From the sequence record OQ850288: a stretch of DNA of 64,000 nucleotides; one strand, 5' to 3'. The notes beneath the pieces were generated by a model that searched no databases, was not told where the DNA came from, and saw only the letters and a program-made list of their open reading frames with translations. The position numbers were made by a program, and so were the translations under genes. Of the stretch, positions 1,823 to 45,885 are shown piece by piece. Position 1 is the first letter of the stretch. Each line of letters opens with the position of its first letter. Source of the DNA: Escherichia phage vB_EcoM_ULIM9.

Positions 1823-2549
1823 CCCCTTTTAACCAGCACTTCAGGTTATTAGCATCATAATTCAGTTTCGGGTATGAGGTTACATGGAACTGCTCACCAT
1901 CATAATAGACAATATCTGCAATCCATAGTCCATTCTCTTTACAGAAGTCTTTATCTGCTTTAGAGGTAATTGGATTAACTTCTACAAAACCATCTACACC
2001 CAAATCCTTTAAGCTACCTACAATACCTTTGCAGATAACGCATGTCTCAGATACTACCACAAAAAGTTCTTGGCTTTCAAGTTCTACAATGTATTCGCCA
2101 AGCTGTACTTTAGGGAGGTTCGATTGCTTCATAACCTTTCCATCGGCTGCACGAACAATCGCATACCATTCTTTACCATCAACTACTGACATTCTGATAA
2201 TACACTCTTGACCAGTGCGCTTTTCAATGTCTGCAAGACGTTTTAAAGCTTCTTCATAGTCATCTGTGTACTTCAGGTCATTATTATGGCAAACAGCTTT
2301 CATAGCACCGTTATGGTCATGCTGTGACAGGTAAATCAAACCATCAAGAACATATTGCAAATCTGCCTGAGCATCCAGTGTCTCAATGGGGTCTTTCTCT
2401 TCAATTGCTTTTACAAGCTCTTTTGCTTCTTCAAGCATACACAGAGACTGGGATTTTAAAGACTCCCAATACTCATCACTGTAAGGTTGCTTTTGAGTGT
2501 TTCCACAACGAAGATTCCAGTTTTTTACTGCTTCTCTTGAGTTAAACAT
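1794..2549 (-). CDS. hypothetical protein with MazG-like (NTP pyrophosphohydrolase) N-terminal motif
   Basis: 251 aa; segment EEAKELVKAIEEKDPIETLDAQADLQYVLDGLIY resembles the acidic EExxE...D...L helix pair of MazG-type NTP-PPases; weak motif-level call. Confidence 0.3.
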   Translation of the reverse strand: MFNSREAVKNWNLRCGNTQKQPYSDEYWESLKSQSLCMLEEAKELVKAIEEKDPIETLDAQADLQYVLDGLIYLSQHDHNGAMKAVCHNNDLKYTDDYEEALKRLADIEKRTGQECIIRMSVVDGKEWYAIVRAADGKVMKQSNLPKVQLGEYIVELESQELFVVVSETCVICKGIVGSLKDLGVDGFVEVNPITSKADKDFCKENGLWIADIVYYDGEQFHVTSYPKLNYDANNLKCWLKGVGYNGFTEH

Positions 2550-2787
2550 TTGGACTCCTTAAAAATCTGTTAACCTTTAGCTCTCGTGTTTCAATATATT
2601 CCAGATGCTCACGTAACTCTTGACGTTTAAGCATTAGGTGTTGCATTTGAGATTCAACAGCTTCAACTTCTTTAATTATTGACTCTCTGGCATTTGCAAG
2701 AATGCGCTCAAGTTCTTCAATCTTGCTGTCAACCTTTGCTACATGACTCACAGCTTTACTTTTGTTAAACATTTTATTCTCTCTCAA
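2542..2787 (-). CDS. hypothetical coiled-coil protein (81 aa)
   Basis: ORF track; charged heptad-like sequence. Confidence 0.4.
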   Translation of the reverse strand: MRENKMFNKSKAVSHVAKVDSKIEELERILANARESIIKEVEAVESQMQHLMLKRQELREHLEYIETRELKVNRFLRSPNV

Positions 2788-2793
2788 TAGTTA

Positions 2794-3294
2794 TCAAGCA
2801 CAATTCGCTTTCATTACCTTATGGATTCTTTTTTCAGCATCTTCATAAGTTTCTTTAGTAATAAACTTAATTGCTGCAATATTGGCATTGTAGAAGAGTC
2901 TGAGCTTAGAGTCAATCCTTTTTGTCATTACATCGAATTTATGTTGGAGGTTTGCTTCACCATAAACTAGACCACCTTTCGTGTAGTAGGTTTGTATAAT
3001 GTAAAAGTCAAAAAATTCTTTTCCAAAGCTCTCAATATCCTTTTTAATATACTCAGAAGAAGTCTCATAAGTCATCCAATCACTTTCCTTAGTGACTATC
3101 TTCTTCCGAGTCTTCCCAGCAACTTTTCTTTTAGTAACACTGTTAAACTGTTTCTTACCCAAATAATACTGTCCAGTCTTTTTGCAGTACACTAGGTAGA
3201 CAAAACCAAAGTGCTTTGCTGGGTCAACTTCACCACATAGTGAAATCCAATGTCCATATTCAGGGCAATTGCCAAAACCTTTTATTTTTCTCAT
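2794..3294 (-). CDS. putative GIY-YIG family nuclease
   Basis: 166 aa; N-terminal FGFVYLVYCKKTGQYYLGKK fits the GIY...YIG pattern; lies beside an HNH endonuclease gene. Confidence 0.4.
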   Translation of the reverse strand: MRKIKGFGNCPEYGHWISLCGEVDPAKHFGFVYLVYCKKTGQYYLGKKQFNSVTKRKVAGKTRKKIVTKESDWMTYETSSEYIKKDIESFGKEFFDFYIIQTYYTKGGLVYGEANLQHKFDVMTKRIDSKLRLFYNANIAAIKFITKETYEDAEKRIHKVMKANCA

Positions 3295-41570: not shown

Positions 41571-43187
41571 TCAACGTCTAAGCCCCTCATATGGGTTTCC
41601 TCTCACTAAATCTGTGTGAGCACCCATTGATGGTGGCTTGAATAATTTAACTTCGTTAAGACTGTTGAAAGCATCACTGGTAGCATCCACTTGGTCATCT
41701 TTAGTTTTACCGTCACCACAAAAGCCTTCAAGTTCTTGAAAGTAAGCTTCATTCCAACTACCTCTCAAGACTTTTACAAGTCCAGCTTCAGAAGCAGCAG
41801 AAAATCCCGCAAAGCGGGTAACTTTATCTTTATTTGTTGGTTTGGCTCTTGCTCGATAACCTTTCTCGGCAAGTTTCCTGATGAGGGATGTTGCGTAGGA
41901 TTTACCAGCAGCGCCTGGGTCTTGAGGGATAAAAATACCAGTTCGCTTACCGTCACTTTCAGCAGTCAAATTAATTTGTGTTTCGACTCCAGAGGGTCTA
42001 TCTCTAAATCTTACTACATCAATGATATAATAGCAACCGTCTTTTTTAGATTTACCCATCTTAACACCTGCTGTCCAGTCTGGATTAGGGTTAACCTCAG
42101 ATGGTAAAGTTGCTGCTAAGTCCCATGCTCTAACATCAAATACATCTTCTGGGAGTGAATCAACAATTTCACACCATTGTCTTTGCCAATAGTTTGAACC
42201 TTCTGCACGAGCCTTCCAGTTACCGAAACGAAGTCTTGCAACGTTTACAGGAGTGTTGTTTTCAAGCTTACCGCGATACTTTGGTTCTAAGAAGTCAAGA
42301 ATCGGGTTATCATCAATCGTACCAGAGATGAAGGTGTATGTTTGAGGAATCTCAAGAGGGAACATTTCAAGAATCTTGTCTCTCTCCCAATCAGAAACCA
42401 TCACACCATCATTCATTACATACCAACGAATACGACCACACTTTTCAGGGTCTGGATAACCTTCTTCATCTAAGAATGGCTCTACCCAATCGTAAATAAA
42501 GTGGTCTCTGTCTGGGTTCATGGAAATCTTCATGTATGAATCGCCTTCAGCACCAGAACGTAGACGGGTTTGTAGGTATGAAATCTGTGAAGCAGAGAAG
42601 TGTGTACCTTCGTCAAAGTAAATAGCTGAGTATTCAATACCCTGATGACCTTCAGCGTGCTTTTCAAGTTCTAGGTAGGTAAACTTGATAGTTGCCCCAG
42701 AAGGGAACGTGATAGTCATTTTCTGCTCGTGAGGAATCCCACCAAACTTACCAAATAGTTTCTTTGCAGCAGGCCATAAACCACCTTGTAGCTGTGTTGT
42801 ATTTCGACGGAAATATACAGCATTATAGTTAGGGTCTTCAATAAATCTTAAAGAGTCCATTAACAATGCAGCAGTTTTACCAGCACCAGCAGCACCACCA
42901 TAGAGAACCAAGTCAGCATTAGTATTTAAAAAGACCTCTTGAGAACCCGGTTGAGGGGCTACATAGTTCTTATCAGTCATCAATTTAAAGATGAGGCGAA
43001 CTTGGTCTGGTGTATATCTTAATAAAGTCAGAATTTGAGTTGGAAGGAATTTAGAGGGGTCTTTACCGAATGACTTGATAATTTCTTTTACTTCATCAGA
43101 AAGCCCCAACTCTCCAGCTAGGACTTTCCTAACATCTTCCACTCGCTTCTGCTTAACAGCATTTAAGTCCATTAAGCGCCTCCGCAA
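41571..43187 (-). CDS. terminase large subunit
   Basis: 538 aa; Walker A LVLYGGAAGAGKTAAL near N-terminus, acidic nuclease-like C-terminal half. Confidence 0.8.
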   Translation of the reverse strand: MRRRLMDLNAVKQKRVEDVRKVLAGELGLSDEVKEIIKSFGKDPSKFLPTQILTLLRYTPDQVRLIFKLMTDKNYVAPQPGSQEVFLNTNADLVLYGGAAGAGKTAALLMDSLRFIEDPNYNAVYFRRNTTQLQGGLWPAAKKLFGKFGGIPHEQKMTITFPSGATIKFTYLELEKHAEGHQGIEYSAIYFDEGTHFSASQISYLQTRLRSGAEGDSYMKISMNPDRDHFIYDWVEPFLDEEGYPDPEKCGRIRWYVMNDGVMVSDWERDKILEMFPLEIPQTYTFISGTIDDNPILDFLEPKYRGKLENNTPVNVARLRFGNWKARAEGSNYWQRQWCEIVDSLPEDVFDVRAWDLAATLPSEVNPNPDWTAGVKMGKSKKDGCYYIIDVVRFRDRPSGVETQINLTAESDGKRTGIFIPQDPGAAGKSYATSLIRKLAEKGYRARAKPTNKDKVTRFAGFSAASEAGLVKVLRGSWNEAYFQELEGFCGDGKTKDDQVDATSDAFNSLNEVKLFKPPSMGAHTDLVRGNPYEGLRR

Positions 43188-43193
43188 ATAGAA

Positions 43194-43394
43194 TTATTCA
43201 GAGTCTGTAGTAGTCTCTTCTTTCTTAACTTCGAACTTTGCATCAACAGCATCAAGAAGTGCATCCATAGATGCTTCTTTAATATCAATACCTGTTGCTA
43301 CAGATAGTCTGTCTGCAATTGCCATAATAGTATTCTGCATAAACTCTAACTTCTTGTTAGCTTCATAAAGTTCTTTATAAACGTTCTCGCTCAT
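43194..43394 (-). CDS. hypothetical protein (66 aa) upstream of terminase
   Basis: ORF track; too small for a typical small terminase. Confidence 0.35.
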   Translation of the reverse strand: MSENVYKELYEANKKLEFMQNTIMAIADRLSVATGIDIKEASMDALLDAVDAKFEVKKEETTTDSE

Positions 43395-43518
43395 TATGTT
43401 TTCTCCAAATAATTAATATTGTTTCCCCTTAAAAAAGACGGCACAGAGACCGTCAAGGAGAAACCACAATGTACGTCAGAGACATACTGTATAAGTCTTC
43501 CTATAAAGTATAACTCTG

Positions 43519-43580
43519 TAAAAAAGCCCTGTCTAAAAATACTCTTCGGTAGCGAAAGGAAGAATACTTATAGCAGGGCA
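43519..43580 (-). terminator. long hairpin plus U-tract downstream of the tRNA array
   Basis: AGCCCTG...CAGGGC outer stem (43525-43579); on minus strand followed by TTTTTT. Confidence 0.4.
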
Positions 43581-43605
43581 TTATTATTATTTTAATTGAG
43601 AGAGA

Positions 43606-43681
43606 GTAAAATAACTTGGAGAATCCGAAGGGACTCGAACCCTTATAAACCTGTTTTGCAGACAGGCACATAGCCATTTCT
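43606..43681 (-). tRNA. tRNA-Cys (anticodon GCA), CCA encoded
   Basis: Hand fold: acceptor GAATCCG/CGGATTC, anticodon loop CUGCAAA, T-arm with TTCGAGT. Confidence 0.55.
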
Positions 43682-43685
43682 GTCA

Positions 43686-43778
43686 CGGATTCAAATTGGA
43701 GGAAGATACCAGACTTGAACTGGTACACCGATTTCTCAGCTACTGGCAGTTTAGCAAACTGCTCCCTTACCTTTTAGG
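43686..43778 (-). tRNA. tRNA-Ser (anticodon GCU), type II long variable arm
   Basis: 93 nt; acceptor GGAAGAT/ATCTTCC, anticodon stem GCAGT/ACTGC with loop UUGCUAA, long variable arm, T-loop TTCAAGT. Confidence 0.55.
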
Positions 43779-43791
43779 GTTAATCTTCCAT

Positions 43792-44526
43792 TTATTTCTG
43801 TAATGCGCTCTTCATTTCTGGTGTTGCAATAGTGTCAATCACACCAGTTTTACAGGCATCGTCAAACCAGTCTGGTAAGATACCTGCTAAGAACCCATTG
43901 ATATTCGTTTTAAGGTACTCTGCAATAAGGGCAGCTTCTTCTTCAATCATCTGCACAACTTCATCTGCATAAGCTGTAATCTTTGAAATACCTTCATTAA
44001 TCTTACTGACAGCTTGGTTAGCTAAATCAGAAACAGTATCAAGACCCTTATCAATAGCATCTTGTAAGTCACTTAACACACCGTTAACACTGTCTAGTGT
44101 GCTGTTAATCATGTCAATAGCTTGCTGACCATACTCTGTAGCAACACCCATAATACCACTAAATGGTGTACAACCAACTTGTTCTCCTGCTGCACCCATA
44201 ACATTGGAATACCCCTTTGCTACCTGCATACGTGATGAAAACTCATCAATAGACTTTTGACCATAGTCTGTTAGGGTCTTAGTAGTTGCTGTAGTGCTTG
44301 TCAGGCTTGTTGTAAAGCTGTTTAGAAGGACTGTTGTAAGTCCAGCAGCAACAAGCTTCTCCTTCATTGTAGGGTCTGTTACAGAGCTAATAGAGCTTAC
44401 AAGTGATGTAGAGGCAGCTACGGTTCCACCGAGAACTGCTGCACCAGTAATAAGTGGGTTAGAAAACCCTTTACCGGTTTTTAAGAGATTAAAAATCTCC
44501 TTACCTTGTTCTGTCATCTCTTTCAT
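43792..44526 (-). CDS. hypothetical S/T-rich protein embedded in tRNA array
   Basis: ORF track frame 43792-44742 trimmed to Met at 44524-44526 (MKEMTEQ) because the upstream 72 codons run through two tRNA genes. Confidence 0.5.
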   Translation of the reverse strand: MKEMTEQGKEIFNLLKTGKGFSNPLITGAAVLGGTVAASTSLVSSISSVTDPTMKEKLVAAGLTTVLLNSFTTSLTSTTATTKTLTDYGQKSIDEFSSRMQVAKGYSNVMGAAGEQVGCTPFSGIMGVATEYGQQAIDMINSTLDSVNGVLSDLQDAIDKGLDTVSDLANQAVSKINEGISKITAYADEVVQMIEEEAALIAEYLKTNINGFLAGILPDWFDDACKTGVIDTIATPEMKSALQK

Positions 44527-44542
44527 TAAGCACCTTTGAAAT

Positions 44543-44618
44543 TGGTAGTCCAGTGGGATTTGAACCCTCTTCTCATGTTTTTCAGACACGCGCTTTACCA
44601 TATAAGCTACTTGGACTA
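44543..44618 (-). tRNA. tRNA-Phe (anticodon GAA)
   Basis: Anticodon loop CUGAAAA, T-arm GGTTCAAATCC. Confidence 0.5.
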
Positions 44619-44623
44619 TAAAT

Positions 44624-44699
44624 TGGGGTGACCTACGGGATTTGAACCCGTATAGACCATGTTCACAGCATGGGTCATTACCATTTATGATAAGGCCAC
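44624..44699 (-). tRNA. tRNA-His (anticodon GUG)
   Basis: Anticodon stem CCATG/CATGG with loop CUGUGAA; T-arm ACGGG/CCCGT. Confidence 0.55.
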
Positions 44700-44730
44700 A
44701 TTTAAGGACTCTCGTAAGAACCCTTAGAAG

Positions 44731-44806
44731 TGGCAGCGGCATAAGGATTTGAACCTTAATAGGACAGCTTCAGAGACTGCTGCATTGCCAGTTATGCTAT
44801 ACCGCT
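44731..44806 (-). tRNA. tRNA-Gln (anticodon CUG), tentative
   Basis: D-arm GCAT/ATGC, anticodon loop CUCUGAA, T-arm TAAGG/CCTTA. Confidence 0.45.
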
Positions 44807-44811
44807 AAAAT

Positions 44812-44882
44812 TGGTACTCCATATCGGATTCGAACCGATACATAACACAGATTTTAAGTCTGGCCTCTCTGCCAATTGGAGT
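44812..44882 (-). tRNA. tRNA, anticodon read as UAA (Leu-type) but short variable arm; isotype uncertain
   Basis: 71 nt; T-arm ATCGG/CCGAT perfect; anticodon loop CUUAAAA. Confidence 0.4.
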
Positions 44883-44892
44883 AATGGAGCAT

Positions 44893-44968
44893 TGGCGGGG
44901 GATGTTGGAATTGAACCAACTTCTTCGATTTCAAAGACCGAGGTTTTAACCTTGTAAACTAATCCCCT
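44893..44968 (-). tRNA. tRNA-Gln (anticodon UUG), tentative
   Basis: D-stem GTTT/AAAC, anticodon loop CUUUGAA, T-arm GTTGG/CCAAC. Confidence 0.45.
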
Positions 44969-44976
44969 TTAATTCT

Positions 44977-45534
44977 TTACTTTCTCAGTGGATGAATAAA
45001 GAATGCCAACATAACTCTTTCCCTTGAGAATGCTCTTTCTTCTGGGACAACACTTTTTAGTTTCCATCCAATATAAATTCTCCAGTAAAACTGTTTACCA
45101 AAGACTTTAATTGATGGGATAAAAGCGAATAATCCCCAAGCATTACTGTTCCACATTAGGAGATAACCAGTCTGATTATCTTCAGGGTCAGAACTTACGT
45201 TGATATTACCTTTCCACTTAGTAACATCTTTGACATCTCTTCCTAATACATGGTAAGAGAAGTTATAAGCTTTGTTTCTCCAGAGCCATCCGACTCTCTG
45301 CATGTAGACACCAAACTTACCAATCTTTCTAATCTTAGCCCATCTTTTAACGTGACCTTCATCACCATCAATCGGGTTGTCATAGGTTTCCATCCATCTG
45401 AATCCAAAAGGTAGATGTCCTTTCTTCTCACTGTAGAATGGAACTACGAAAGGTGCTAAGATGACTGCTAGGGTTGCTGCAAATGGTTCTAGTAAAGCTA
45501 GGAAAATCCATGAAGCATACTTCAAATATCTCAT
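44977..45534 (-). CDS. membrane protein embedded in tRNA array
   Basis: 185 aa; N-terminal hydrophobic helix (WIFLALLEPFAATLAVILAPFVVPF). Confidence 0.5.
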   Translation of the reverse strand: MRYLKYASWIFLALLEPFAATLAVILAPFVVPFYSEKKGHLPFGFRWMETYDNPIDGDEGHVKRWAKIRKIGKFGVYMQRVGWLWRNKAYNFSYHVLGRDVKDVTKWKGNINVSSDPEDNQTGYLLMWNSNAWGLFAFIPSIKVFGKQFYWRIYIGWKLKSVVPEERAFSRERVMLAFFIHPLRK

Positions 45535-45553
45535 CTAAATAGCCTCTTAAAAT

Positions 45554-45631
45554 TGGTGTTCCAAGACGGATTCGAACCGTCACTAATACAAGGTTTGAGC
45601 TTGCATCCTCTGCCAATTGGGATACTGGAAC
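45554..45631 (-). tRNA. tRNA, anticodon read as CAA; isotype uncertain
   Basis: T-arm GACGG/CCGTC; anticodon stem GCAAG/CTTGT with loop CUCAAAC. Confidence 0.4.
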
Positions 45632-45632
45632 A

Positions 45633-45707
45633 TGGTACTCACTAAAGGACTTGAGCCTTTTTCTTCATCTTGTAAGGGTGATGTTTTACCATATAAACTA
45701 AGCGAGT
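45633..45707 (-). tRNA. tRNA-Val (anticodon UAC), tentative
   Basis: D-stem GTTT/AAAC, anticodon loop CUUACAA, T-stem AAAGG/CCTTT. Confidence 0.45.
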
Positions 45708-45802
45708 GTGAAAGAGGTCTGAAGTTGTGCCGCTAACTCAACTCCGTGGAATTTGTTACGGTCTTCAGTTGACACCAGCGGTCTTTCACTTGACCTCTGA
45801 AT

Positions 45803-45879
45803 TGGTGCTGCTCACAGGACTCGAACCTGCATTTCCATCCTTACAAGGGATGTGTAATAGCCAATTATACGAAAGCAGC
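45803..45879 (-). tRNA. tRNA-Thr (anticodon UGU)
   Basis: Anticodon stem CATCC/GGATG perfect, loop CUUGUAA; T-loop TTCGAGT. Confidence 0.55.
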
Positions 45880-45885
45880 TTTATT

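What the first reader, a model, noticed from the sequence alone, without database searches (positions are those of the whole stretch)
45708..45802. Gap in the tRNA array with strong nested inverted repeats but no canonical T-loop
Between two tRNA genes lies about 90 nt with nested complementary segments (AGAGGTC...GACCTCT; TGAAG...CTTCA; CCGCT...AGCGG), giving a tRNA-sized structured element that lacks the GTTCGA/TTCRA T-loop signature present in its neighbours. It could be a highly divergent tRNA, a tRNA-derived regulatory RNA or a processing structure.
Basis: seen in the sequence. Interest (0 to 1): 0.4.

Follow-up and report, generated by a model that had tools for sequence, protein, structure and literature searches.

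The report
Orphan structured RNA in tRNA array
A tRNA-sized gap in the tRNA gene cluster of a Felix O1-like phage holds an unannotated, very strongly conserved folded RNA that is not a tRNA and matches no known RNA family. Selection clearly keeps it, but what it does is unknown.

Summary
The window is a Felix O1-like phage. Its tRNA array lies on the minus strand.

It is not a tRNA: Rfam, ARAGORN and relaxed ARAGORN all find nothing. It matches none of 4227 Rfam families.

It is the most conserved segment of its neighbourhood, with a nearly invariant 27-nt core. It occurs in about 253 Felixounavirus, Mooglevirus and Suspvirus records and in 6 Avunavirus records, always on the tRNA strand.

Compensatory changes support three helices: the terminal helix P1, the helix P2, and an unexpected helix P-alt. 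P-alt excludes the central hairpin of the rod fold and forms a pseudoknot with P2. G.U pairs place the RNA on the minus strand.

Best reading: a small stable RNA excised from the tRNA precursor that acts through its invariant strand.

A Y-RNA role is possible, because a Ro60-like gene heads the array. It is weakened because Avunavirus keeps the element without that gene, and because four other elements in the array are better Y-RNA candidates.

Function is unproven and no expression data exist.

The parts
45708..45802 (-). E0: the whole gap element. The RNA sense is the minus strand. The P1-to-P1 body is 45713-45798 (86 nt).
   Evidence: The gap lies between ARAGORN tRNAs. It is conserved in 259 phage records. 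There is no Rfam hit.
45792..45798 (-). P1 5' strand, AGAGGUC (alignment columns 1-7)
   Evidence: It pairs with 45713-45719. Pair 4:84 is GC in 14 sequences, UA in 2 (Avunavirus) and GU in 1.
45713..45719 (-). P1 3' strand, GACCUCU (columns 81-87)
45778..45781 (-). P2 5' strand, CCGC (columns 18-21)
   Evidence: Pair 20:68 is GC in 15 sequences, AU in 1 (L048/L049) and GU in 1 (L070). The helix is 100% paired.
45730..45733 (-). P2 3' strand, GCGG (columns 67-70). It lies inside the loop of P-alt, so P2 and P-alt together form a pseudoknot.
45739..45745 (-). P-alt 5' strand, GGAGUUG (columns 55-61). It overlaps the 3' strands of P3 and P4, so P-alt and P3/P4 are mutually exclusive.
   Evidence: All 7 pairs are paired in all 17 distinct sequences and 4 pairs vary. 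57:77 is AU/GC/GU and 56:78 is GU/GC/AU. It is the best-supported of all possible helices.
45721..45727 (-). P-alt 3' strand, CAACUUC (columns 73-79). One nucleotide (A80) separates it from the P1 3' strand.
45747..45773 (-). Nearly invariant 27-nt core, GUCAACUGAAGACCGUAACAAAUUCCA
   Evidence: Only 1 of 27 columns varies among 24 distinct Felix-like regions. The core is identical in Avunavirus.
45738..45772 (-). Central hairpin of the rod fold. P3 is UCAACU (45767-45772) with AGUUGA (45738-45743). A GAAGA bulge follows. P4 is CCGU (45758-45761) with ACGG (45744-45747). The loop is AACAAAUUCC.
   Evidence: This hairpin is part of the minimum-free-energy fold in Felix-type sequences. It has no compensatory change, and 4 sequences break a pair.
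45803..45879 (-). Upstream neighbour, tRNA-Thr(UGU), with an encoded CCA. Four nucleotides (AUUC) separate it from P1.
45633..45707 (-). Downstream neighbour, tRNA-Val(UAC). RNase P cleavage at its 5' end would set the 3' end of E0 (inferred).

Best explanation
E0 is a gene for a small, stable, non-coding RNA of about 86-95 nt that rides in the polycistronic tRNA transcript of Felix O1-like phages.

Proposed mechanism:
1. The array is transcribed on the minus strand.
2. 3' maturation of tRNA-Thr (4 nt upstream) and RNase P cleavage at +1 of tRNA-Val (5 nt downstream of P1) release E0 as a by-product of normal tRNA processing.
3. The 7-bp terminal helix P1 seals both ends against exonucleases.
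4. Inside, helix P-alt stacks on P1, and its loop GCGG pairs with an upstream CCGC (P2). This gives a compact pseudoknotted body. A rod-like hairpin (P2-P3-P4) is an alternative, mutually exclusive conformer.
5. The body presents a nearly invariant 27-nt strand. I infer that this strand is the working surface, and that it binds a partner common to infections of E. coli, Salmonella, Shigella and Citrobacter. A protein partner is more likely than an RNA partner.

Shown: the element exists, it is under strong purifying selection, it sits on the tRNA strand, helices P1, P2 and P-alt covary, and it is not a tRNA or any Rfam family.

Inferred: that it is transcribed, how it is excised, that it is stable, and that it works in trans.
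For: - Position and strand. The gap is tRNA-sized, with 4-nt and 5-nt spacers like those between neighbouring tRNAs. In Avunavirus the element lies just downstream of tRNA-Gly, in the same orientation relative to the tRNAs.
- Purifying selection. Mean pairwise difference is 0.021 for the E0 body, against 0.026-0.20 for the five nearby tRNAs scored, 0.27 for a spacer and 0.22 for the adjacent coding sequence. The 27-nt core scores 0.003.
- Retention. E0 is about 82% identical between Felix-like phages and Avunavirus, with sharp ends at P1, while the flanking tRNAs differ (Thr, Val and Leu are absent from the Avunavirus block).
- Structure. Both-sided changes occur in P1 (4:84), P2 (20:68, with its GU intermediate) and P-alt (57:77, 56:78). 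P2 and P-alt are 100% paired in 17 distinct sequences. For P1+P2+P-alt, 0/500 shuffles reach the observed covariation score, paired fraction or number of both-sided-change cells, 4/500 reach the number of pairs changed on both sides, and 45/500 the number of further pair types.
- Strand. P1, P2 and P-alt contain 19 G.U cells on the minus strand, which would be A.C on the plus strand. Only 1 cell shows the reverse.
- Not coding. The ORFs over it run into antisense tRNAs, and the flanks are not shared with Avunavirus.
- No sigma-70-like promoter or intrinsic-terminator match lies on it.
- Precedent. T4 carries two annotated 'small, stable RNAs' (rnaD 119 nt, rnaC 139 nt) 1 and 6 nt from their neighbours in its tRNA cluster.
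Against: - No expression, processing or binding data were available. Transcription and excision are inferred from position alone.
- Phylogenetic depth is shallow. There are essentially two lineages plus singletons, so each covarying pair rests on one to three events.
- Two incompatible folds compete. In Felix-type sequences the rod is favoured by 7 kcal/mol (-30.1 against -23.0). In Avunavirus the two are nearly equal (-21.3 against -22.5). The native fold is therefore unsettled.
- No partner was found. Predicted duplexes with phage transcripts are no better than for shuffled cores. There is no match in 5426 E. coli genomes and no rRNA mimicry beyond chance.
- E0 is absent from more distant Ounavirinae-like phages that keep the same array layout.
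Confidence: 0.5

Rival explanations
1. E0 is a Y-RNA-like partner of the phage Ro60-like protein, of the hairpin type (like YrlB and Yrn2). Its terminal stem would bind the Ro60-like ring encoded at the head of the array. Its invariant loop would tether an effector such as host PNPase.
For: - The ORF at 48462-49877(-), directly upstream of the array, has a Ro60 fold. The AF2 model has pLDDT 87.9, and the top 10 Foldseek PDB hits are all Ro60/TROVE (E 3e-8 to 4e-6, TM 0.54-0.66). It is 33-35% identical to mycobacteriophage 'Ro-like RNA binding proteins'.
- E0 lies 2.7 kb downstream on the same strand. This is within the 4-kb, same-strand rule reported for bacterial Y RNAs (PMC4201824).
- E0 is 86 nt, its 5' and 3' ends pair, and a 10x10-nt internal loop follows. 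Y RNAs are described as 80-130 nt with a long terminal stem and a large internal loop, and each species has one long-hairpin Y RNA.
- The 5' strand GGUCAAG(U)G loosely resembles GGUCCGA / GNCGAAN0-1G.
- PMC11482910 already guessed that some Bas63 'tRNAs' are Y RNAs.
Against: - The defining GNCGAA/CGAA motif is absent (sequence; motif).
- The Avunavirus phage Av-05 keeps E0, with compensatory changes, but has no Ro60-like gene anywhere in its genome. TH18 has none within the 50-kb segment around E0.
- Three more distant relatives keep the Ro60-like gene but have no E0.
- Four other elements in the array (E1-E4) track the Ro60-like gene in all four lineages examined, and E4 has a YrlA-like permuted tRNA domain. 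They are the better Y-RNA candidates.
- Covariation favours P-alt over the rod.
Confidence: 0.15
2. E0 is a cis-acting element of the polycistronic transcript. It could be a processing or insulator hairpin (an RNase III or RNase E entry site, or an exonuclease barrier). It could also be a conformational switch that tunes read-through or maturation of the downstream tRNA-Val, tRNA-Leu and the DUF7338 gene.
For: - It sits between tRNAs.
- The rod fold resembles the long irregular hairpins that act as RNase III sites in T7 early RNA (own knowledge).
- Two mutually exclusive helices share the strand GGAGUUG, and the competing strands UCAACU and CAACUU are near-duplicates. This is the layout of a switch.
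- E0 travels with the downstream DUF7338 gene. The protein is 79% identical in Av-05, and E0 is about 37 nt upstream of the ORF that precedes it there.
Against: - A 27-nt stretch that is loop or bulge in every fold is nearly invariant, which a structural barrier does not require.
- No terminator-like U-run follows it.
- The other tRNA junctions in the array manage with 1-10-nt spacers.
- T4-like phages carry DUF7338 next to tRNAs without any E0.
Confidence: 0.2
3. E0 is a decaying relic, either a dead tRNA or a dead copy of the E-type elements, conserved only because the phages are closely related.
For: - The distribution is narrow.
Against: - E0 is less variable than the functional tRNAs beside it.
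- It carries compensatory changes.
- It survives in Avunavirus while adjacent tRNAs were lost.
- An nhmmer profile of 14 E-type 5' parts does not hit E0 even at E<=100.
- tRNA models do not score it.
Confidence: 0.04
4. E0 is a DNA-level signal (a protein binding site, a recombination or homing site, or a promoter) or a short plus-strand coding sequence.
For: - The inverted repeats are equally present in DNA.
- The plus strand folds as well as the minus strand.
- GenBank records annotate ORFs across it (Felix O1 ORF107, wV8 51A, HY02).
- The complement of the core reads GICYGLQL.
Against: - G.U asymmetry strongly favours the minus-strand RNA, 19 cells against 1.
- There is no promoter-like match.
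- The annotated ORFs overlap antisense tRNAs and are not conserved in Avunavirus.
- The invariant core shows no third-position variation, unlike the neighbouring coding sequence.
Confidence: 0.04

Closest known systems
Phage T4 species 1 and species 2 RNAs (rnaC, rnaD)
   Same: They are small, stable, non-tRNA RNAs encoded inside a phage tRNA cluster on the tRNA strand, 1-6 nt from their neighbours, with unknown function (annotation in NC_000866). This is the same genomic logic as E0.
   Different: There is no sequence similarity (local alignment scores 14-18, the same range as other chance-level alignments here; no shuffle control was run for this pair). They are longer (119 and 139 nt). rnaC carries a canonical T arm (CCGGGUUCGAAUCCCGG) and E0 has none. 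Model R1 was not run on the T4 locus itself; in three other T4-like tRNA regions it finds nothing.
Bacterial and phage Y RNAs (YrlA, YrlB, Yrn1/2, Thermus phage Yrl1/2)
   Same: [quoted passage not shown]
   Different: E0 lacks the GNCGAA/CGAA motif. It persists in Avunavirus without a Ro60-like gene. It is absent from relatives that have the gene. Covariation supports a pseudoknot rather than the Y-RNA rod.
E-type elements of the same array (E1-E4), which resemble Dictyostelium Class I RNAs (RF01414)
   Same: They are also non-tRNA cassettes between tRNAs on the same strand. E0 shares the string GAAGACCGU and an ACA..AA remnant with them.
   Different: E-type elements have a covarying two-part stem with an A-N-A internal loop and a UWUWCAGCAA box. 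E0 has neither, and a profile of the E-type 5' part does not detect it.
tRNA (RF00005)
   Same: A 7-bp terminal helix, tRNA-like length, and position in the array. In the covariation-supported fold, a second helix stacks on P1 and its loop pairs with the region where a D arm would be. This loosely recalls the acceptor/T-arm 'top half' (inference).
   Different: There is no cloverleaf, no T-loop, no D arm and no encoded CCA. No tRNA tool detects it at any threshold.
RNase III processing hairpins of phage T7 early transcripts
   Same: A long irregular hairpin with internal loops between cistrons of a polycistronic phage transcript (own knowledge).
   Different: Those sites are defined by helix geometry, not by a long invariant single-stranded sequence. 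No cleavage data exist for E0.

Membership tests
tRNA (Rfam RF00005 / ARAGORN) | The cloverleaf scores above the family threshold (29 bits) | tested here: not met
   No tRNA or tRNA-Sec hit over 45708-45802 at E<=10, either in the 6-kb search or when E0 is searched alone. All 21 neighbours score 44-63 bits or are found by ARAGORN.
tRNA (Rfam RF00005 / ARAGORN) | T arm with a GTTCRA-type T-loop | tested here: not met
   No GTTCGA, GTTCAA or TTCRA on either strand.
tRNA (Rfam RF00005 / ARAGORN) | Detectable when heuristic thresholds are relaxed | tested here: not met
   ARAGORN -t at ps50 and ps20 finds 0 genes in the Felix and Av-05 copies. Relaxed -mt mode gives inconsistent calls whose ends do not match P1.
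Y RNA (bacterial/phage YrlA/YrlB type) | 80-130 nt, with the 5' and 3' ends paired in a long stem next to a large internal loop | tested here: met
   86 nt. P1 is 7 bp with a compensatory change. A 10x10-nt internal loop follows. The definition comes from PMC4201824.
Y RNA (bacterial/phage YrlA/YrlB type) | GNCGAAN0-1G (bacteria), CGAA (phage) or GGUCCGA (animals) motif near the 5' end | tested here: not met
   The sequence reads GGUCAAGUG in Felix-type copies and UGUCAAUG in Av-05. There is no CGAA anywhere in E0.
Y RNA (bacterial/phage YrlA/YrlB type) | Encoded within about 4 kb of a Ro60 orthologue, on the same strand | tested here: inconclusive
   Met in the window: the Ro60-fold ORF at 48462-49877 lies 2.7 kb upstream on the same strand. 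Not met in Avunavirus, where Av-05 has no Ro60-like gene.
Y RNA (bacterial/phage YrlA/YrlB type) | Co-occurrence with the Ro60 gene across genomes | tested here: not met
   E0 occurs without the Ro-like gene in Avunavirus. The Ro-like gene occurs without E0 in L042-L044.
Y RNA (bacterial/phage YrlA/YrlB type) | Bound by Ro60, and stability depends on Ro60 | not testable with these tools
   Needs immunoprecipitation or gel-shift.
Rfam YrlA (RF02553) | Covariance-model score | tested here: not met
   The only YrlA hit in the array is 17.3 bits (E 8.5), over tRNA-Phe/His and not over E0.
E-type elements of this array (Class I-like: stem plus UWUWCAGCAA box) | Conserved 5' part: lower helix, A-N-A loop, upper helix, CAGCAA box | tested here: not met
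   The nhmmer profile of 14 members hits E4, E2 and E1 at E 6e-4 to 3e-3 and E3 more weakly at E 0.13. It does not list E0 at E<=100.
T4 rnaC/rnaD stable RNAs | Sequence or structure homology | tested here: not met
   Local alignment scores are 14 and 18, the same range as other chance-level alignments here (no shuffle control was run for this pair), and the folds differ.
T4 rnaC/rnaD stable RNAs | A non-tRNA cassette abutting tRNAs on the tRNA strand in a phage tRNA cluster | tested here: met
Intrinsic terminator | G+C-rich hairpin directly followed by a U-run | tested here: not met
   No terminator-like site on E0 in the scan of 43400-48600. The tail is UUCAC.

The most novel reading that the evidence does not exclude
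E0 founds a new class of phage RNA. It would be a tRNA-sized, pseudoknotted passenger in tRNA arrays whose P1/P-alt coaxial stack and P2 loop contact imitate the acceptor/T-arm top half of a tRNA. That would let the tRNA-processing machinery excise and stabilise it. Its invariant 27-nt strand would then act as a decoy or tether for a host RNA-handling or defence protein, independently of the phage Ro60-like system.
Probability: 0.15. Interest if true: 0.65.

Novelty: new variant of a known kind. Interest (0 to 1): 0.45.

Why it matters
Felix O1-like phages are classic Salmonella typing phages and candidates for phage therapy and biocontrol. Their tRNA arrays are currently viewed as translation aids or as counters to tRNA-cleaving defences.

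E0 shows that the array also carries at least one strongly selected RNA that no pipeline annotates. GenBank records either leave the gap blank or place spurious ORFs on it.

If E0 is a trans-acting RNA, it adds a new player to phage-host RNA biology. It also offers a compact test case of 86 nt with two competing folds and a 27-nt invariant surface.

E0 shares the array with a Ro60-fold gene and four Y-like elements. This locus therefore looks like a phage RNA-handling module rather than a simple tRNA cluster.

Tried and rejected
1. tRNA or tRNA-like detection: Rfam and ARAGORN, including relaxed modes, find nothing.
2. Any Rfam family: E0 searched alone with lax filters gives only two noise fragments on the plus strand.
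3. More distant homologues:
   - Two degenerate-pattern scans of IMG/VR returned only the same clades plus chance coding hits.
   - One metagenome scan and one GTDB genome scan returned only Felix-like and Avunavirus-like contigs. The other hits were guaA genes.
   - The covariance model R1, run with filters off on three distant Ounavirinae-like arrays and three T4-like tRNA regions, gave a best E of 0.55-3 with no convincing alignment.
4. E0 as a degenerate copy of the E-type elements: the nhmmer profile does not see it.
5. Antisense targets in the phage or in Av-05: the best duplex energies (-27 kcal/mol) are no better than for shuffled cores (-27 to -32).
6. Copies or long complementarity in 5426 E. 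coli genomes: none.
7. Mimicry of the 16S rRNA decoding-site strand (UGAAGUCGUAACAA against UGAAGACCGUAACAA): the local alignment to the rrn operon is not above shuffles, with 284 of 300 shuffles scoring as high.
8. Hammerhead reading of CUGAAGA plus GAAA: the order and spacing of the core elements do not fit (by inspection), and no ribozyme family hit was found.
10. A functional link to the DUF7338 gene: the gene occurs next to tRNAs in T4-like phages without E0.
11. Homology to T4 rnaC/rnaD: none.
12. Experimental fitness data for the locus from the Bas63 PhageMaP screen: no supplementary tables are held.

Full report
**What the window is.** A 901-nt stretch around the finding is 97-99% identical to many Felixounavirus genomes (L27, REP8-12, Felix O1 relatives). 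The 111 nt centred on the finding are 100% identical to Felix O1 itself. ARAGORN finds 21 tRNA genes, all on the minus strand, between 43617 and 48295. The finding is the gap between tRNA-Thr (45803-45879) and tRNA-Val (45633-45707).

**The observation.**
- The gap is exactly 45708-45802, 95 nt.
Two further pairs exist.
- There is no T-loop signature on either strand.
- One detail is wrong: TGAAG/CTTCA crosses CCGCT/AGCGG rather than nesting with it.
- Either strand folds into a long irregular hairpin. Stability is moderately beyond chance (z -2.3 and -2.6).

**Not a tRNA and not a known family.**
- In a permissive Rfam scan of 43000-49000, every neighbouring tRNA scores 44-63 bits and nothing covers the gap at E<=10.
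- With the element searched alone, so that filters are laxest, only two noise fragments appear on the plus strand.
- ARAGORN finds no tRNA at 50% or 20% of its thresholds in either the Felix or the Avunavirus copy. Relaxed mitochondrial mode gives inconsistent calls.
- GenBank records leave the gap blank or place ORFs on it that run antisense into tRNAs (Felix O1 ORF107, wV8 51A, HY02).

**Distribution.**
- blastn finds the element (called E0 here) in 259 phage records. About 253 are Felixounavirus, Mooglevirus or Suspvirus. Six are Avunavirus-like Vequintavirinae (Av-05 twice, TH18, 18-1-2, 19-1-2, 24-2-1). The Avunavirus copies are about 82% identical, and the alignment ends at the outer stem.
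- In Av-05 and TH18, E0 lies immediately downstream of tRNA-Gly(UCC), in the same orientation relative to the tRNAs. Two ORFs follow it instead of tRNA-Val and tRNA-Leu.
- The second of those ORFs is a DUF7338 protein 79% identical to the one downstream in the window. A block from tRNA-Gly through E0 to DUF7338 was therefore exchanged between the two phage groups. E0 was kept while tRNA-Thr, tRNA-Val and tRNA-Leu were not.
- Pattern scans of IMG/VR, JGI metagenomes and GTDB genomes return only these clades. The remaining hits are chance matches in coding sequence.
- Three more distant Ounavirinae-like phages with the same array layout have no E0. Their Ro-like proteins are 53-63% identical. 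In Yersinia phage P778 the Thr-Val gap holds a 42-codon ORF. In another it is 35 nt.
- T4-like phages carry DUF7338 beside their tRNAs, also without E0.

**Selection.** I aligned 24 distinct Felix-like regions and measured mean pairwise difference:

| Segment | Mean pairwise difference |
|---|---|
| E0 body | 0.021 |
| E0 27-nt core GUCAACUGAAGACCGUAACAAAUUCCA | 0.003 |
| tRNA-Leu | 0.026 |
| tRNA-Val | 0.065 |
| tRNA-Thr | 0.14 |
| 19-nt spacer | 0.27 |
| DUF7338 coding sequence | 0.22 |

The same core is identical in Avunavirus. E0 is therefore under purifying selection at least as strong as that on the tRNAs. This rules out a decaying relic.

**Structure.** Seventeen distinct sequences were aligned (A2). 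Column numbers below refer to that alignment.
- The obvious rod is the minimum-free-energy fold of Felix-type sequences, at -30.1 kcal/mol. It consists of P1 (columns 1-7/81-87), P2 (18-21/67-70), P3 (28-33/57-62) and P4 (39-42/53-56).
- The variation does not favour its centre. P3 and P4 show only wobble changes, and four sequences break a pair.
- An alternative helix, P-alt (columns 55-61 with 73-79), reads GGAGUUG/CAACUUC in Felix-type copies and GGGGUUG/CAACCCU in Avunavirus. It is paired in every sequence although four of its seven pairs vary. Pair 57:77 is AU, GC or GU. Pair 56:78 is GU, GC or AU.
- In an exhaustive scan of all possible helices of the alignment, P-alt ranks first for variable pairs and for compensatory pairs. 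P1 and P2 follow.
- P1 has GC, UA and GU at 4:84. P2 has GC, AU and the GU intermediate at 20:68; the variants are L048/L049 and L070.
- For P1+P2+P-alt, 0 of 500 column shuffles reach the observed paired fraction, covariation score or number of both-sided-change cells. Four of 500 reach the count of pairs changed on both sides and 45 of 500 the count of further pair types. Slid registers collapse to 32-45% paired.
- P-alt is incompatible with P3/P4. With P2 it forms a pseudoknot, because the P2 3' strand GCGG lies in the P-alt loop. P-alt abuts P1 with one nucleotide between them, so the two could stack.
- In Avunavirus the P1+P-alt fold is the minimum-free-energy fold, and the rod is within 1.2 kcal/mol of it.
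- Caveats: the depth is two lineages plus singletons, and the shuffle control ignores relatedness. I treat P1, P2 and P-alt as supported, and the rod as a possible alternative conformer.

**Strand.** In P1, P2 and P-alt there are 19 G.U cells on the minus strand that would be A.C on the plus strand. Only one cell shows the reverse. Together with the conserved orientation relative to the tRNAs, this places the functional molecule on the tRNA strand as RNA.

**Context: a Ro60-like gene and Y-like RNAs.**
- The ORF heading the array (48462-49877, minus strand, 471 aa) is Pfam DUF2828+DUF7788.
- It is 33-35% identical to mycobacteriophage 'Ro-like RNA binding proteins'.
- Its AF2 model (pLDDT 87.9) matches Ro60/TROVE structures as the top ten PDB hits.
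- A preprint on the Felixounavirus Bas63 noted the same similarity and guessed that some 'tRNAs' are Y RNAs (PMC11482910).
- I therefore tested E0 as a Y RNA. Size, terminal stem, internal loop and position (2.7 kb downstream, same strand) fit the published description (PMC4201824).
- Against it, the GNCGAA/CGAA motif is absent. Av-05 has E0 but no Ro-like gene anywhere in its 121 kb, and TH18 has none within the 50-kb segment around E0. The three distant relatives have the gene but no E0.
- Four other gap elements in the array (E1-E4) are much better candidates:
  - They share a covarying two-part stem, an A-N-A internal loop and a UWUWCAGCAA box.
  - They recur in all three distant relatives.
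  - They are absent from Av-05.
  - One of them (E4) encloses a permuted tRNA-like domain, as YrlA does.
- E0 shares the string GAAGACCGU with them, but a profile of their 5' part does not detect E0 at E<=100.

**Search for a partner or a mimic.**
- Duplexes between the core and either phage genome are no better than for shuffled cores.
- No copy or long complement exists in 5426 E. coli genomes.
- An apparent resemblance to the 16S decoding-site strand is not above chance.
- No promoter-like or terminator-like site lies on E0.
- T4's annotated small stable RNAs rnaD and rnaC occupy the equivalent position in its tRNA cluster but are not homologous.

**Conclusion.** E0 is a real, unannotated, strongly selected structured RNA cassette on the tRNA strand. 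It is not a tRNA and not a member of any described family.

The most economical mechanism is the one long assumed for T4 species 1 and 2 RNAs. E0 would be co-transcribed with the tRNAs, released by the enzymes that mature its neighbours, and protected by its terminal helix. It would then act through its invariant 27-nt strand on a partner still to be found.

A cis role in processing and a Y-RNA-like role remain open. Nothing about expression or binding could be tested here.

Noticed in passing
window 48462-49877 (-): The 471-aa ORF directly upstream of the tRNA array (Pfam DUF2828+DUF7788) has a Ro60/TROVE+vWA fold. The AF2 model has pLDDT 87.9, and the top 10 Foldseek PDB hits are all Ro60 (E 3e-8 to 4e-6). 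Homologues occur in 709 phage records, including Vibrio, Listeria, Mycobacterium, Campylobacter and Bacillus phages.
   Followed up: yes
window, minus strand: E1 about 48130-48051, E2 about 47963-47892, E3 about 47570-47491, E4 about 47483-47344; also L042 9223/9381/9671 and several gaps of L043 and L044: This is a family of non-tRNA elements between the tRNAs. Each has a lower helix, a 5' A-N-A internal loop (one G or A opposite), a 6-7-bp upper helix, a box UWUWCAGCAA, a variable insert, and the closing strands. Both helices covary richly across 4 phage lineages: AGACCG/CGGUCU, GGACUG/CAGUCC, GGAUUC/GAAUCC, AGUAUC/GAUACU and others. The motif GAAGACCRWWWACA has 4 hits against 0.43 expected. 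The elements track the Ro60-like gene and are absent from Av-05. They are likely its Y-RNA-like partners.
   Followed up: partly
window 48055-48121 (-) and 47494-47561 (-): The E-type elements weakly hit Rfam Dicty_Class_I_RNA (RF01414; 19.7 and 14.8 bits, against a gathering score of 41.5). The aligned part is the family's hallmark: a stem followed by (C)UUACAGCAA, then the closing strand. Class I RNAs are reported as unique to dictyostelid amoebae (PMC7919456). The shared box plus stem could be convergence or could reflect a common binding protein. This was not resolved.
   Followed up: partly
window about 47344-47483 (-), element E4: E4 encloses a circularly permuted tRNA-like domain. The order is T arm (GAAGGUUCGAUUCCUUC), acceptor 3' strand, loop, acceptor 5' strand (GUCGAGU), then D arm (GUGUAAUGGUAGCAC). 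This is the order expected for YrlA-type Y RNAs. Similar inserts occur in L043 12718-12894 and L044 12883-13098 and 13484-13594. The Rfam YrlA model does not score it.
   Followed up: partly
window about 46797-47153 (-): A possible phage tmRNA-like gene. The reading frame GCAAACGACAAUGUUUUUCUGGCAGUAGCUUGAUAG gives the tag ANDNVFLAVA**, preceded by a resume-like AAUAAAU. ARAGORN calls it only at relaxed thresholds. Rfam tmRNA and permuted-tmRNA hits are weak (15.9 and 21 bits). A similar weak tmRNA hit occurs in Yersinia phage P778 (L043 13009-13149).
   Followed up: partly
window 47136-47198 (-) and 46796-46875 (-): Two tRNA-like genes are missed by default ARAGORN. One scores 32.9 bits with the Rfam tRNA model, and relaxed ARAGORN calls it tRNA-Lys(UUU). 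The other resembles a long-arm tRNA (tRNA-Sec model 23 bits; possible anticodon loop CUUCUAA).
   Followed up: partly
L029 9072-9093 (-), L042 9972-10049, L043 13901-13982: A third type of tRNA-sized non-tRNA cassette has a covarying 6-7-bp closing stem (GCCUCU/AGAGGC against ACCCUU/AAGGGU) and an invariant 22-nt core GCGGCUGGAAACACCCACUCAA. It is present in Citrobacter phage Michonne and two distant relatives and absent from this window.
   Followed up: no
window 46210-46463 (-): The 254-nt gap upstream of tRNA-Leu(UAG) folds into a very stable set of hairpins (-72.6 kcal/mol). These include a roughly 30-bp perfect stem at the 3' end. The layout is conserved in L042 11217-11468. It gives miRNA-precursor-like noise hits in Rfam.
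   Followed up: no
window 45747-45773, plus strand; L071-L074: The complement of the E0 core reads GGA ATT TGT TAC GGT CTT CAG TTG, which translates to GICYGLQL. This is the active-site motif of the GMP synthase glutamine amidotransferase domain. All non-phage hits of the 22-nt pattern that were translated are guaA genes, in CPR bacteria, an archaeon and Ignavibacteria. The similarity does not extend beyond 8 codons and is probably coincidence.
   Followed up: partly
L001 2667-2815 (Av-05, minus strand): A 149-nt unannotated stretch lies between tRNA-Gly and tRNA-Tyr in Av-05. Together with tRNA-Tyr it matches Salmonella phages 19 and 41 at 91% and Klebsiella jumbo-like phages at 88%. It is another candidate non-tRNA cassette.
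   Followed up: no
window 44977-45534 (-); L001 1697-2239; L045-L047 about 2501-3050: The DUF7338 membrane-protein gene (annotated 'holin' in some records) sits inside or beside tRNA clusters in three unrelated phage groups: Felix-like phages, Avunavirus and T4-like phages. This suggests that tRNA regions are shared exchange hot spots.
   Followed up: partly
window 47079-47107 (-): A near-consensus sigma-70 promoter (TTGACA, 17 nt, TATAGT; 11/12) lies inside the array just upstream of the tmRNA-like tag region. Two more lie upstream of the first tRNA (48442-48414 and 48351-48322).
   Followed up: no
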